Assembly: GCA_000004985.1 (NCBI GenBank)
Contig: GG739255.1
Direction: 5' to 3' (one strand)
Source: Naegleria gruberi
Lineage: Eukaryota
DNA length: 2,627 nt
Positions within the stretch are counted from its first letter, which is position 1, and each line of letters begins with the position of its first letter. The notes below the pieces were generated by a model. The model was given only the letters and a program-made list of their open reading frames with translations, did no database searches and had not been told where the DNA came from. Positions 2 through 2,627 of the stretch are shown piece by piece. The position numbers and the translations under genes were made by a program.

Positions 2-670
2 TATGAAGCATCCAATGACGACGATCACGCAATGGAAATTATGATTAAGGACTCATTCTCAGTTTCTAGAACTACCAATCAAGTACGTGAATCTGATGAT
101 TTGGACGATTTGGATGATTTAATTAATCGTACTGAAAATATCAAACTAAACTATGAAACTGAATCAGGTACAGACGATGAAACTGATTCATCTTCTGATG
201 GAAAGGGAGAATTTACTTCAGTTTCACTCAATACACCTTCAGATAATAGAAAATCCAACAGTTCCAGAAGAATAATCGAATCAGATTCCGATAATTCTGA
301 CGAGGAAATTTCACTCAACACCACAACAGTGAAACCAAATTCTTCCAACAACTCAACGGTCAACTCTGGAAAGATTATCCTCAAAGATCACCACTCTGAT
401 TCAGATTCAGATTCTGAACAAGATGATGAGGAAGAACTTGTTGGAGCAACCTTCTCAGTCAAACCAACAATTTCACTCCAGCAGTCAACCAACTCTGTTT
501 CACTCAATTCACCAGGATCTAATTTATCAACACCATCCACCAAAATCAAAACAAGAATAAGCAAAACATCAGACAAGACCAAACGTGTTAAGAAGAATCA
601 ATCTACATTCAGAAGAATGCATCGACTTGTTGAAGGTCAATTAGAAACTTTGGGCATTGAAATTGAATAA
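2..670 (+). CDS. 3' (C-terminal) part of an acidic Ser/Asp-rich repetitive protein; 5'-partial. Frame is open from the window edge; first in-frame ATG at 32; stop TAA at 668-670. Possibly a nuclear/nucleolar phosphoprotein-like low-complexity protein; identity not recognised.
   Basis: ORF track lists 32..670 (212 aa). The same frame has no stop back to position 2 (Y-E-A-S-N-D-D-D-H-A-M...), and the upstream residues are acidic like the rest, so the CDS probably starts outside the window. The ATG at 32 has a purine at -3 and G at +4, so it could alternatively be the true start. Composition shows acidic/Ser clusters (DLDDLDDL, ESDSDNSDEE, HSDSDSDSEQDDEEE), Asn/Ser/Thr-rich linkers and a basic tail (KIKTRISKTSDKTKRVKKNQSTFRR). 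The two minus-strand ORFs 151..384 and 388..582 are antisense mirrors of this low-complexity region. Confidence 0.6.
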   Translation, partial: YEASNDDDHAMEIMIKDSFSVSRTTNQVRESDDLDDLDDLINRTENIKLNYETESGTDDETDSSSDGKGEFTSVSLNTPSDNRKSNSSRRIIESDSDNSDEEISLNTTTVKPNSSNNSTVNSGKIILKDHHSDSDSDSEQDDEEELVGATFSVKPTISLQQSTNSVSLNSPGSNLSTPSTKIKTRISKTSDKTKRVKKNQSTFRRMHRLVEGQLETLGIEIE

Positions 671-1235: not shown

Positions 1236-1682
1236 TTTTTTGAACTAGAAACCAAACACAATATGAAATTCATCATGATTAGACATCACACCGTACGTAT
1301 TTATTGGCTTTATTTCAGCTTTAATCAAATGATCATGAAAATATTAATACCTAAGTCAAAAGCAATTTTTTTGAAAGCAATACGATTTCGAATTAGAAAT
1401 TTTGAACATTTCCTTTTTGGGATTCACTTAAGAAAACATGAATTAAAAACAATCAAATCATCCCTCCAGAGGTATTAAACACTTTTAATATATAACATAT
1501 GGCGAATTGTAATCAGTCTCAATAGATAAATATGTACATCTTCATCCAACCCAAATCCTTAATTTTCAAGTTGGAAGGAATTATTAATATCAAAAGCACT
1601 TATTTGAATTTCAATGGTGGTGTGCATAATCATTGATATTATGTAAACATTGTAGTTTAGATAACATTCTCAAACTCTAATG

Positions 1683-2116
1683 AGTTGGAAAGAAGTTGTG
1701 GCCAAAAATTCGAAACAGGTTTATTTTTTTTACAGTGGCGGAGCGGATATCATATCACATAATCTTTCTATTTAGTTAACTTGCATACTTGAGAGATTCA
1801 TACAAGATATTGTACTACTTTTTGTTGCCGAGAAAAGGTTTACCCGAGCTAAAGTCTTACGCACCAGGTTTTACAGTACTCTGCCTTCAACTCATCTCCT
1901 TTAAAGTGGGTAATAACCTTATTAATAATTCCACAGTAAACCATCTGGAAATTGTCCTTTGAATTTCCAAACCGTAACACGCTCTGCTGTTCACGCCACG
2001 CACCTTCACGCTATCCTTAGTAAAATCAATCTATACAGCCTTAATCAAAAAAGTGTTTGCTGGCAATTTTTCGTAAATATTGAGTGGCGCTCAAATCCGT
2101 TTTTTGATTAAAAAAA
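1683..2116 (+). other. ATG-free leader: no ATG on the + strand between the ATG at 1680-1682 and the gene-2 start codon at 2117-2119. Candidate long 5' UTR / transcribed leader of gene 2.
   Basis: Manual scan of every 'at' dinucleotide across 1683-2116 found no following g. The 70 nt immediately upstream contain three ATGs (1613, ~1648, 1680). For an AT-rich background, several ATGs would be expected by chance in 434 nt. Confidence 0.35.
1978..2011. promoter_or_regulatory. Cluster of four CACGC cores (1978-1982, 1992-1996, 1997-2001, 2007-2011), three of them as TCACGC. On the complementary strand this is GCGTG, the RCGTG core used by bHLH-PAS factors (HIF-type HRE, AHR-type XRE). It lies ~105-140 bp upstream of the gene-2 ATG.
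   Basis: The sequence reads aaCACGCtctgctgtTCACGCCACGCaccttCACGCtatcc. This is four occurrences of a GC-rich 5-mer within 34 bp of an AT-rich locus. A TATA-like taaatat lies at ~2075-2081. Confidence 0.35.
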
Positions 2117-2243
2117 ATGCAAGGAAGAACGCTACTGCTTTTCTCGCTCATTCTTTTATGTGTGCTAGCTTGTTGTTGTGTAGAGAATGTTACTGCTGAA
2201 TCATGGAGAGGTTTCTTGAGTCAATCTATGCAAGTTACAAATG
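2117..2243 (+). CDS. Exon 1 of gene 2. Start codon in A-rich context (aaaaaaaATGc). It encodes the signal peptide and start of the mature region: MQGRTLLLFSLILLCVLACCCVENVTAESWRGFLSQSMQVTN + first base of a Gly codon.
   Basis: The ATG at 2117 follows the 434-nt ATG-free stretch. The N-terminus has the n-region (R4) / hydrophobic core (LLLFSLILLCVLA) / polar c-region layout of a secretory signal peptide. The exon ends at a consensus donor aatg|GTAAGTg at 2244. The frame is closed by a TGA at 2261-2263 inside the intron. Confidence 0.6.
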
Positions 2244-2306
2244 GTAAGTGGAGTGTAATTTGACATTTTGGAAGAATTAAGCATTATGATCATTATTCAT
2301 ATTTAG
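2244..2306 (+). other. Intron 1 of gene 2, 63 nt, phase 1, GTAAGTG...ATTTAG
   Basis: The 5' GTAAGT is at 2244-2249. The 3' end has a T-rich tract plus AG at 2305-2306 (tcatatttag|ga). There is an in-frame TGA at 2261-2263. Splicing 2243|2307 joins g+ga = Gly and restores an open frame. The size is typical of short nematode introns. Confidence 0.55.
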
Positions 2307-2627
2307 GAAAATTATTTTCATCATCAAAAAGATCACAAGTTGTTTGTCCTCCAAATACCTTTGGAAGTAAATGTAATAATAAGGTGAATCTACCAGATAC
2401 ATATCCTCTCAAAAAAGGTCCGTTAATGATTGGCCAGATGGAGATTAATGATGGAAATTCTTATTCATGCGAGTGGACTTTTTTTGTTTTAGAATTTAAT
2501 CAAAGTTTTAGTTATCCCTGTTTTTTTGTCGTAGCCGATACAACTGTTCCACCAATCAATTACACTCTAACCTATTCAGTGTGGTCTGCAGGTTTCATAA
2601 TTTTTTCAAAGGATGTTGTGTTTATTG
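2307..2627 (+). CDS. Exon 2 of gene 2 (3'-partial; continues past the window end). Phase-1 start; the spliced frame is open with no stop for 107 codons: G KLFSSSKRSQVVCPPNTFGSKCNNKVNLPDTYPLKKGPLMIGQMEINDGNSYSCEWTFFVLEFNQSFSYPCFFVVADTTVPPINYTLTYSVWSAGFIIFSKDVVFI. Secreted/type-I membrane protein of unrecognised family.
   Basis: A codon-by-codon read from 2309 to 2627 found no stop. In AT-rich DNA a stop-free run of this length is unlikely by chance. Internal candidate splice signals (donor aag|gtgaat at 2384; T-run+AG at 2491-2492 and 2533-2534) would both lead to an early stop if used, so read-through is favoured. The exact exon structure is uncertain. Confidence 0.45.

What the first reader, a model, noticed from the sequence alone, without database searches (positions are those of the whole stretch)
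1978..2011. Four CACGC (GCGTG) cores packed into 34 bp about 105-140 bp upstream of the gene-2 start codon
The motif occurs at 1978, 1992, 1997 and 2007, three times as TCACGC. It sits in a locally GC-richer patch of an otherwise AT-rich intergenic region. GCGTG is the core recognised by bHLH-PAS heterodimers (HIF/ARNT hypoxia response element RCGTG; AHR/ARNT xenobiotic element TNGCGTG). Such a density of a GC-rich pentamer is very unlikely by chance. Its position fits a proximal promoter or enhancer of the downstream secreted-protein gene, which might therefore be hypoxia- or xenobiotic/stress-inducible. The function is inferred only.
Basis: partly seen in the sequence, partly recalled or inferred. 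Interest (0 to 1): 0.55.

Follow-up and report, generated by a model that had tools for sequence, protein, structure and literature searches.

The report
CACGC cluster upstream of Naegleria gene
Four copies of the short word CACGC really do sit together just upstream of a small secreted-protein gene, but the DNA comes from the amoeba Naegleria gruberi, which is not an animal, so the proposed hypoxia/dioxin-receptor explanation does not apply, and the cluster is at most a candidate binding site for an unknown Naegleria factor.

Summary
CACGC starts at 1978, 1992, 1997 and 2007, all on the + strand, 106-139 bp before the ATG at 2117. The 34-bp patch is 65% G+C in a 30% G+C intergenic region. No dinucleotide shuffle reproduces the cluster (0/5000 whole window, 0/20000 local). 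Any G+C-rich pentamer reaches the same density in 0.4% of shuffles. One detail is wrong: TCACGC occurs twice in the cluster, not three times.

The gene-2 product is 97% identical to a Naegleria gruberi predicted protein, so this is a heterolobosean amoeba, not a nematode. The bHLH-PAS architecture (HIF, AHR, ARNT) arose in early animals. None of the four sites is the preferred HIF site ACGTG, and none fits the extended dioxin-element consensus.

No RNA family, tRNA, tandem repeat, hairpin, convincing ORF or transposon end explains the block.

My best reading (about 0.45) is a same-orientation cluster of binding sites for an unidentified Naegleria DNA-binding protein in the gene-2 promoter. The nearly equal rival (0.35) is a functionless product of micro-duplication and chance.

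No orthologous or genome-wide Naegleria sequence could be reached, so conservation and enrichment remain untested. Interest is low.

The parts
1978..2011 (+). The CACGC cluster as a whole: 34 bp, 65% G+C, C-rich on the + strand (16 C, 6 G), with 4 CpGs
1978..1982 (+). CACGC copy 1 (context aaccgtaaCACGCtctgctgt)
1992..1996 (+). CACGC copy 2 (context ctgctgttCACGCcacgcacc). It is preceded by TT, as copy 4 is.
1997..2001 (+). CACGC copy 3, directly tandem to copy 2 (CACGCCACGC)
2007..2011 (+). CACGC copy 4 (context cgcaccttCACGCtatcctta). TTCACGC is shared with copy 2, 15 bp away.
1991..1999 (+). TCACGCCAC, the only match in the window to the sterol-regulatory-element consensus TCACNCCAC (consensus recalled from memory). 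It also contains CGCCAC and the only CCACG in the window.
1734..1740 (+). AGTGGCG, a distal copy of the second recurrent G+C-rich word (GTGGCG, the reverse complement of the CGCCAC inside the cluster)
2083..2089 (+). AGTGGCG, the proximal copy of the same word, lying in the centre of the inverted repeat TTGAG-TGGCG-CTCAA (2080-2094)
2074..2080 (+). TATA-like TAAATAT, 37-43 bp before the ATG. This is a candidate core promoter of gene 2 (inferred).
2117..2243 (+). Gene 2 exon 1. The ATG at 2117 is preceded by an in-frame TGA at 2105-2107. It encodes a signal-peptide-like N-terminus, MQGRTLLLFSLILLCVLACCCVENVTAES...
2244..2306 (+). Gene 2 intron, 63 nt, GTAAGT...TTTAG. Removing it reproduces the reference protein sequence.
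2307..2627 (+). Gene 2 exon 2, which runs off the window. The spliced 149 aa are 97% identical to N. gruberi predicted protein P0001.
2..670 (+). 3' part of gene 1, an open frame of 222 codons rich in Ser/Asp/Glu with a basic C-terminus and a TAA stop at 668-670. It is not part of the element and only bounds the intergenic region.

Best explanation
The block is a promoter-proximal, same-orientation (homotypic) cluster of short G+C-rich recognition words in the upstream region of an orphan, probably secreted, protein gene of Naegleria gruberi.

The proposed mechanism is inferred, not shown. An as yet unidentified Naegleria sequence-specific DNA-binding protein reads the core CACGC/GCGTG. It could be a C2H2 zinc-finger type or another non-bZIP, non-E-box type of factor. 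It would occupy up to four sites spaced 14, 5 and 10 bp apart. Acting from about 65-95 bp upstream of a TATA-like box, it would raise or gate transcription of gene 2. The recurrent GTGGCG word at 1735, 1994 (opposite strand) and 2084 may belong to the same control region.

What is shown: the words, their non-random density, their position, and the identity of the organism. What is inferred: protein binding, the target gene and any effect on transcription.
For: - Four same-strand copies lie within 34 bp. This occurred in 0/5000 and 0/20000 shuffles, and family-wise in 0.4% of shuffles.
- The spacers between copies are unrelated to each other. Only copies 2 and 3 are tandem, so the array is not a simple microsatellite. 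TRF finds nothing there at a minimum score of 30.
- The block is a 65% G+C, CpG-rich island in 30% G+C, CpG-depleted DNA (intergenic CpG o/e 0.69). In a genome under A+T pressure such words tend to decay unless they are young or maintained.
- The position fits a promoter: 106-139 bp before the ATG, upstream of a TATA-like TAAATAT at 2074-2080.
- A second G+C-rich word, GTGGCG, recurs three times in the same upstream region. This specific word did so in 0/3000 shuffles, and any hexamer with at least 5 G/C did so in 1.4%.
- Other kinds of feature were looked for and not found: no Rfam family at E up to 10 in 1650-2116, no tRNA, no hairpin (DNA fold z = +0.39), no RNA-structure signal (z = -1.59 and -0.05), and no ORF above 57 aa.
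Against: - There is no comparative evidence at all. The gene is an orphan, with only P0001 itself among 1.84 billion representatives. No Naegleria DNA could be retrieved from any collection. Conservation of the block is therefore untested.
- No genome-wide background exists here, so it is unknown whether CACGC clusters are enriched in Naegleria promoters.
- The flanks of the four cores share no extended consensus beyond roughly WWCACGCY. A 5-bp core carries little information.
- No Naegleria cis-regulatory motif of this kind turned up in the literature searches.
- A per-window family-wise rate of 0.4% means that chance instances are expected somewhere in a whole-genome scan.
Confidence: 0.45

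Rival explanations
1. The cluster has no function. It is a by-product of local micro-duplication or replication slippage (CACGC to CACGCCACGC, and a TTCACGC copy 15 bp away) plus chance. The first-stage reader picked it up because it scanned many windows.
For: - Copies 2 and 3 are a perfect 5-bp tandem duplication, and copies 2 and 4 share TTCACGC at a 15-bp offset.
- The core is only 5 bp and has no conserved flanks.
- The family-wise shuffle rate of 0.4% per 2.6-kb window predicts dozens of such clusters in a genome of about 41 Mb (size from memory).
- Real genomes make local repeats more often than shuffles do.
- No conservation, expression or binding data exist.
Against: - Copy 1 and copy 4 are separated from the others by unrelated spacers, so slippage alone does not produce the array. 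TRF reports nothing there.
- Four intact CpG-containing words persist in CpG-depleted, A+T-rich DNA.
- The location lies within the promoter zone of a gene.
- A second G+C-rich word recurs nearby.
Confidence: 0.35
2. One reading: the cores are hypoxia-response or xenobiotic-response elements bound by bHLH-PAS heterodimers (HIF/ARNT or AHR/ARNT), which would make gene 2 inducible by hypoxia or xenobiotics.
For: GCGTG formally fits RCGTG at all four sites. TNGCGTG fits at two sites (1992, 2007) and TGCGTG at one (1997). N. gruberi has many PAS-domain proteins, 50-80 according to the survey read.
Against: - The organism is Naegleria gruberi, not an animal.
- The bHLH-PAS architecture was assembled in early Metazoa, and the one N. 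gruberi PAS domain that survey tested had only bacterial relatives.
- None of the four sites is the preferred HIF core ACGTG/TACGTG, and none fits the extended dioxin-element consensus KNGCGTGMSA.
Confidence: 0.01
3. The sites are bound by a non-PAS factor of a conserved family. One option is an SREBP-like bHLH-zipper at TCACGCCAC (1991-1999). Another is an ER-stress or secretory-pathway factor that reads CCACG or AGCGTG-type elements, which would fit a secreted-protein gene.
For: - TCACGCCAC is an exact, unique match in the window to TCACNCCAC (consensus from memory).
- CCACG occurs once, inside the cluster.
- Copies 1 and 4 read AGCGTG on the minus strand. This is 6 of the 7 bases of the yeast UPRE core CAGCGTG (from memory).
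- Gene 2 has a signal-peptide-like N-terminus.
Against: - Only one of the four cores fits the SRE consensus.
- There is no full match to CAGCGTG, to CCAAT-N9-CCACG, or to any ACGT-core or E-box site in 1700-2116.
- No SREBP or Hac1/XBP1-type factor in Naegleria was documented in the papers found.
- Short consensus matches of this kind are expected once the G+C-rich cluster is given.
Confidence: 0.05
4. The block is part of something other than a promoter element. Candidates are an unannotated short gene or exon, a lineage-specific non-coding RNA, or a remnant of a mobile element occupying the coding-like G+C stretch 1651-2116.
For: - The stretch 1651-2116 is 36% G+C, like the flanking coding regions, whereas 1100-1650 is 25%.
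- GTGGCG-GAGCG at 1735-1745 is complementary to CGCTC...CGCCAC at 1980-1999, and the two pair in the + strand RNA fold.
Against: - No ORF exceeds 57 aa on either strand in 1650-2116.
- No Rfam hit up to E = 10 falls there.
- Fold z-scores of -1.59 and -0.05 are not significant.
- The suspected 140-bp internal repeat is not real: alignment score 7 against a shuffle mean of 6.9.
- The long-range complementarity is only 6 + 5 bases with a 9-nt bulge.
- No related copy exists elsewhere in the window.
Confidence: 0.08

Closest known systems
Metazoan hypoxia-response element (RCGTG; HIF-alpha/ARNT) and xenobiotic/dioxin-response element (TNGCGTG; AHR/ARNT)
   Same: They share the pentamer GCGTG. All four sites fit RCGTG, and two fit TNGCGTG. 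The location is promoter-proximal and the sites are multimerised.
   Different: The host is a heterolobosean amoeba, in which the bHLH-PAS family is not expected. No site has the preferred ACGTG. None fits the extended dioxin-element consensus.
Homotypic clusters of transcription-factor binding sites in promoters of A+T-rich protists and fungi, for example the G-box / CA-rich elements bound by GBF in Dictyostelium and multimerised UAS elements in yeast (recalled from memory)
   Same: Several same-word G+C-rich sites are packed within a few helical turns, standing out from A+T-rich intergenic DNA, about 100 bp upstream of the core promoter.
   Different: Here no factor, no binding, no expression data and no conservation are available. 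The word CACGC is not a described Naegleria element in any paper found.
Sterol regulatory element (TCACNCCAC) bound by SREBP/Sre1 bHLH-zipper factors. Sre1 is the hypoxic regulator of fission yeast (from memory).
   Same: TCACGCCAC at 1991-1999 is an exact match.
   Different: Only one of the four cores fits. SREBPs are documented in opisthokonts, and no Naegleria SREBP was found in the literature search.
EGR/KLF-type C2H2 zinc-finger sites (GCGTGGGCG; CCACGCCC) (from memory)
   Same: The minus strand reads GCGTGGCGTG, which shares GCG-TGG with the EGR site. The + strand TCACGCCA resembles the KLF CACGCC core.
   Different: There is no exact match to GCGTGGGCG, CCACGCCC or CACCC. These families are animal-specific, so only the general zinc-finger reading mode could apply.
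Class C / N-box sites of Hairy/E(spl) bHLH repressors (CACGCG, CACNAG) and canonical E-box/G-box (CACGTG)
   Same: They share the half-site CACG.
   Different: There are no CACGCG or CACGTG sites in the window and no ACGT core in 1700-2116. No WRPW or EH1 Groucho-interaction motifs were found in Naegleria transcription factors (PMC4943189).

Membership tests
bHLH-PAS response elements (HRE / XRE) | The host genome encodes bHLH-PAS factors (HIF-alpha, AHR, ARNT) | tested here: not met
   The organism was identified as Naegleria gruberi. The bHLH-PAS architecture arose in early Metazoa according to bioRxiv 10.1101/2023.04.23.537977. The N. gruberi proteome itself was not scanned here.
bHLH-PAS response elements (HRE / XRE) | Core RCGTG (HRE) with the preferred A at R (ACGTG/TACGTG) | tested here: not met
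   All 4 sites are GCGTG, and none is ACGTG or TACGTG. The only TACGTG in the window is at 84, inside gene 1.
bHLH-PAS response elements (HRE / XRE) | XRE consensus TNGCGTG and its extended form KNGCGTGMSA | tested here: inconclusive
   TNGCGTG fits 2 of 4 sites (1992, 2007), TGCGTG fits 1 of 4 (1997), and the extended consensus fits 0 of 4.
bHLH-PAS response elements (HRE / XRE) | The target gene is induced by hypoxia or by aryl-hydrocarbon ligands | not testable with these tools
   No expression data are available. Gene 2 is an orphan of unknown function.
Promoter-proximal homotypic binding-site cluster (generic cis-regulatory module) | At least 3 copies of one word within about 50 bp, beyond the composition-matched expectation | tested here: met
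   There are 4 copies in 34 bp. This occurred in 0/5000 and 0/20000 shuffles, and family-wise in 20/5000.
Promoter-proximal homotypic binding-site cluster (generic cis-regulatory module) | Located upstream of a gene's core promoter or start site | tested here: met
   The block lies 106-139 bp before the ATG at 2117 and upstream of the TATA-like 2074-2080. The transcription start site itself is not known.
Promoter-proximal homotypic binding-site cluster (generic cis-regulatory module) | The cores are conserved in orthologous upstream regions | not testable with these tools
   No Naegleria DNA was retrievable. The gene has no homologue other than the reference allele.
Promoter-proximal homotypic binding-site cluster (generic cis-regulatory module) | A sequence-specific protein binds the word and affects transcription | not testable with these tools
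   This needs an experiment (EMSA, DNA-affinity purification or DAP-seq, and a reporter).
Sterol regulatory element (SREBP site) | Match to TCACNCCAC | tested here: met
   TCACGCCAC at 1991-1999 is the single match in the window. The consensus was recalled from memory.
Sterol regulatory element (SREBP site) | The host encodes an SREBP-type bHLH-zipper | not tested
   The literature search for Naegleria plus SREBP gave nothing relevant. The proteome was not scanned.
Structured RNA, tRNA or tandem repeat | Match to an Rfam or tRNA model, significant folding, or a TRF array covering 1978-2011 | tested here: not met

The most novel reading that the evidence does not exclude
The CACGC array, together with the GTGGCG words at 1735 and 2084, is the recognition module of a Naegleria- or Heterolobosea-specific transcription factor. 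That would make it one of the first cis-regulatory words defined in this lineage. Every core carries a CpG and N. gruberi has a TET-type 5-methylcytosine dioxygenase (mentioned in PMC9451156), so occupancy could be gated by cytosine methylation or oxidation.
Probability: 0.1. Interest if true: 0.4.

Novelty: new member of a known kind. Interest (0 to 1): 0.2.

Why it matters
If the cluster is functional, it would give a concrete, testable cis-element in Naegleria gruberi. My literature searches found no described promoter motif for this organism, and it is used as a model for early eukaryotic cell biology. A 34-bp probe with four cores would be a practical bait for isolating the cognate factor.

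As it stands it is a single-locus motif cluster upstream of an orphan gene, with no conservation, enrichment or expression evidence. The main practical result is negative. The metazoan HIF/AHR reading should be dropped, because the sequence is not from an animal.

Tried and rejected
- **Structured RNA or tRNA.** Rfam at E up to 10 gave no hit in 1650-2116. ARAGORN found no genes.
- **Tandem or direct repeats.** TRF at minimum score 30 found nothing at the cluster. The only family touching it (D1) is a 79% match to two coding-region 19-mers in gene 1, taken as chance.
- **Hairpin or cruciform.** The DNA fold of 1960-2030 gave z = +0.39. RNA folds of 1720-2020 gave z = -1.59 and -0.05.
- **A 140-bp degenerate direct repeat.** This was suggested by TTTTACAGT and ACGCACC recurring about 140 bp apart. 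The global alignment score was 7 against a shuffle mean of 6.9, so it was rejected.
- **Hidden ORF.** Nothing exceeds 57 aa in 1650-2116.
- **Function of gene 2.** There was no Pfam hit, and the only homologue is the reference N. gruberi protein. The AlphaFold single-sequence model had pLDDT 37.5, so no fold search was run.
- **Gene 1.** It has no homologue at all.
- **Retrieving orthologous or reference DNA.** The exact-protein look-up of P0001 and of three window ORFs failed. Protein-guided scans of metagenome, viral and prokaryotic genome contigs found nothing.
- **Exact 22-mer scan of metagenome contigs.** It gave one hit (L001). The hit lies inside a bacterial ORF of at least 799 codons, encodes ...SEREGAWREMARQVAH, and has unrelated flanks, so it is chance.
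- **Spaced-core pattern in viral contigs.** There were two hits. The one inspected (L002) is a 56% G+C contig with 26 CACGC/GCGTG copies, so it is chance.
- **Consensus scans.** There was no match in the upstream region for E-box, class C, EGR, KLF, yeast UPRE, ERSE, MRE, Myb, HSE, E2F, CAMTA or T-box sites.
- **Literature on Naegleria promoters, motifs, TATA boxes, SREBP and bHLH.** Nothing described such an element. De Mendoza et al. 2013 (PMC3864300) is not held.

Full report
**1. What is in the sequence**

CACGC occurs five times in the 2627-bp window, all on the + strand: at 26, 1978, 1992, 1997 and 2007. The last four fall within 34 bp (1978-2011), inside the string aaccgtaaCACGCtctgctgttCACGCCACGCaccttCACGCtatcc. 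Start-to-start spacings are 14, 5 and 10 bp. Copies 2 and 3 form a perfect tandem, and copies 2 and 4 share TTCACGC. Beyond roughly WWCACGCY the flanks share nothing.

It is TCACGC twice (1991, 2006), ACACGC once and CCACGC once. The third TCACGC in the window is the unrelated copy at 25-30.

The block is 65% G+C and strongly C-rich on the + strand (16 C, 6 G). The 1446-bp intergenic region is 30% G+C with a CpG observed/expected ratio of 0.69. The block holds 4 of the region's 23 CpGs.

**2. Is it more than chance**

- The tool's own 200 shuffles expect 0.77 copies in the window, and none reaches 5.
- In my dinucleotide-preserving shuffles, at least 4 copies within 34 bp occurred in 0 of 5000 whole-window shuffles.
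- The same density occurred in 0 of 20000 shuffles of the locally G+C-richer stretch 1651-2116 alone.
- Asking the question family-wise, any of the 96 strand-collapsed pentamers with at least 4 G/C reaches 4 copies in 34 bp in 20 of 5000 shuffles, or 0.4%.

The cluster is therefore non-random for a single window. A rate of 0.4% per 2.6-kb window still allows dozens of chance instances in a whole genome. Real DNA also makes local repeats more readily than shuffles do.

**3. What organism and what genes**

The window holds two genes on the + strand.

Gene 1 is an open frame of 222 codons (2-670) rich in Ser, Asp and Glu. It has no detectable homologue and no Pfam domain.

Gene 2 starts at ATG 2117, which is preceded by an in-frame TGA. 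It has a 63-nt GT...AG intron at 2244-2306 and then continues to the end of the window. Its spliced 149 residues are 97% identical, over 100% of their length, to a 226-aa 'predicted protein [Naegleria gruberi]' (P0001).

So the window is from Naegleria gruberi or a very close strain or haplotype (5 of 149 residues differ). It is not from a nematode or any other animal.

P0001 is a complete orphan. It is the only hit among 5.8 billion clustered proteins and among 1.84 billion representatives searched exhaustively. A single-sequence AlphaFold model is unusable (pLDDT 37.5). Only the N-terminal hydrophobic helix, residues 2-28, is confident, which fits a signal peptide.

**4. What the block is not**

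- No Rfam family at E up to 10 lies in 1650-2116, and there is no tRNA.
- There is no tandem-repeat array.
- There is no hairpin: DNA fold z = +0.39.
- There is no significant RNA folding on either strand: z = -1.59 and -0.05.
- No ORF longer than 57 aa covers it.
- A suspected 140-bp internal duplication was tested and rejected.
- The exact 22-mer TTCACGCCACGCACCTTCACGC occurs once in a soil-metagenome contig. There it encodes part of ...SEREGAWREMARQVAH in a bacterial ORF of at least 799 codons, and the flanks are unrelated, so it is a chance match.
- A spaced-core pattern hit two viral contigs. The one inspected is 56% G+C with 26 copies of the word, again chance.

**5.

GCGTG is indeed the core of the AHR/ARNT element, and it fits the loose HIF core RCGTG (established knowledge). 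The factors are the problem. According to the PAS-domain survey read (bioRxiv 10.1101/2023.04.23.537977), PAS domains were joined to bHLH transcription factors in early metazoan evolution. N. gruberi has many PAS proteins, and the one PAS domain that survey tested had only bacterial relatives. A heterolobosean is therefore not expected to have HIF, AHR or ARNT.

The sequence fit is also minimal. No site is ACGTG or TACGTG. Two of four fit TNGCGTG, one fits TGCGTG, and none fits the extended dioxin-element consensus.

The generic half of the interpretation, a promoter-proximal element of the downstream secreted-protein gene, remains plausible. The block lies 106-139 bp before the ATG. A TATA-like TAAATAT sits at 2074-2080, followed at once by the small inverted repeat TTGAG-TGGCG-CTCAA at 2080-2094.

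**6. Other consensus comparisons (consensus strings recalled from memory)**

The upstream region 1700-2116 has no E-box CACGTG, class C CACGCG, ACGT core, EGR, KLF, CACCC, yeast UPRE CAGCGTG, ERSE, MRE, Myb, HSE, E2F, CAMTA or T-box site. Canonical bZIP, G-box and E-box factors therefore have no canonical site there.

The one exact hit is TCACGCCAC (1991-1999) to the sterol-regulatory-element consensus TCACNCCAC. It covers only one arrangement of the cores, and no Naegleria SREBP is documented in the papers found. On the minus strand the tandem pair reads GCGTGGCGTG. This resembles zinc-finger triplet sites of the EGR type without matching them.

**7. A second recurrent word**

GTGGCG/CGCCAC occurs three times in the intergenic region: at 1735-1740 (+), at 2084-2089 (+, both as AGTGGCG), and as CGCCAC at 1994-1999 inside the cluster. 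That specific word reached three copies in 0 of 3000 shuffles. Any hexamer with at least 5 G/C did so in 41 of 3000, or 1.4%. This is weak, partly dependent evidence that the 1730-2095 stretch carries more than one reused G+C-rich word.

**8. Best explanation and rivals**

Best explanation (confidence about 0.45): a homotypic, same-orientation cluster of binding sites for an unidentified Naegleria DNA-binding protein in the gene-2 promoter. The supporting points are:
- the density of the word;
- the unrelated spacers, so the array is not a microsatellite;
- four intact CpG words in CpG-poor, A+T-rich DNA;
- the position relative to the ATG and the TATA-like box;
- the absence of any other feature type.

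Binding, target gene and effect on transcription are all inferred.

Main rival (0.35): functionless micro-duplication plus chance. It is favoured by the tandem CACGCCACGC, the short core, the missing flank consensus, and the lack of any conservation or enrichment data.

Minor rivals:
- part of an unannotated transcript or mobile-element remnant (0.08). This is prompted by the coding-like 36% G+C of 1651-2116 and a weak 6 + 5 base long-range complementarity between 1735-1745 and 1980-1999;
- an SREBP-like or ER-stress-type factor (0.05);
- the bHLH-PAS model (0.01).

**9. What could not be done**

No Naegleria genomic DNA other than the window could be reached. Exact-protein look-ups failed. 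Protein-guided scans of metagenome, viral and prokaryotic contigs found nothing. Gene 2 has no orthologue in any database searched.

They are spelled out under next steps. Literature searches found no described Naegleria promoter motif to compare with.

**10. Verdict**

The mechanistic reading offered (HIF/AHR/ARNT, hypoxia or xenobiotic induction, Caenorhabditis mutants) does not apply to this organism.

What remains is an ordinary candidate cis-element upstream of an orphan gene. It would be a new member of a well-known kind, with no functional or comparative support yet. Interest is low (0.2).

Noticed in passing
window 1734-1740, 1994-1999, 2083-2089: The G+C-rich hexamer GTGGCG/CGCCAC occurs three times in the 1446-bp intergenic region, twice as AGTGGCG and once inside the CACGC cluster. 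This specific word did so in 0/3000 shuffles. Any hexamer with at least 5 G/C did so in 1.4% of shuffles.
   Followed up: partly
window 2074-2094: A TATA-like TAAATAT (2074-2080) is followed at once by the inverted repeat TTGAG-TGGCG-CTCAA (2080-2094), 23-43 bp before the gene-2 ATG. This is a candidate core promoter or operator-like element.
   Followed up: no
window 2117-2627 (gene 2): Gene 2 encodes a Cys-containing protein with a signal-peptide-like start. It is a complete orphan, with only the N. gruberi reference allele found among 1.84 billion representative proteins. It has no Pfam domain, and the AlphaFold single-sequence model has pLDDT 37.5.
   Followed up: yes
window 2-670 (gene 1): This is a 222-codon open frame rich in Ser, Asp and Glu, with repeated ...VSLN(T/S)P... 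peptides and a basic C-terminus. It has no homologue at E <= 0.01, not even a N. gruberi reference protein, so it may be unannotated in the reference.
   Followed up: partly
window 2117-2563 compared with P0001: The window's gene-2 product differs from the NCBI N. gruberi protein at 5 of 149 residues (S10T, C19Y, R31G, G32S, F101I). The window therefore comes from another strain, haplotype or very close species rather than the reference allele.
   Followed up: partly
L001 23-44 (metagenome contig Ga0134128_10001257): The exact 22-mer of the cluster (TTCACGCCACGCACCTTCACGC) occurs in a 35% G+C bacterial contig. It lies inside a long ORF and encodes SEREGAWREMARQVAH, the H-box region of a sensor histidine kinase. 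The flanks are unrelated to the window, so it is judged a coincidence.
   Followed up: yes
window 1651-2116 compared with 1100-1650: The 466 bp immediately upstream of gene 2 are 36% G+C, which is coding-like. The preceding 551 bp are 25% G+C. No ORF, RNA family or repeat explains the step in composition.
   Followed up: partly
window 1735-1745 and 1980-1999: GTGGCG-GAGCG is complementary to CGCTC-(9 nt)-CGCCAC about 240 bp downstream, and the two pair in the + strand RNA fold. The fold z-score of -1.59 is not significant.
   Followed up: partly
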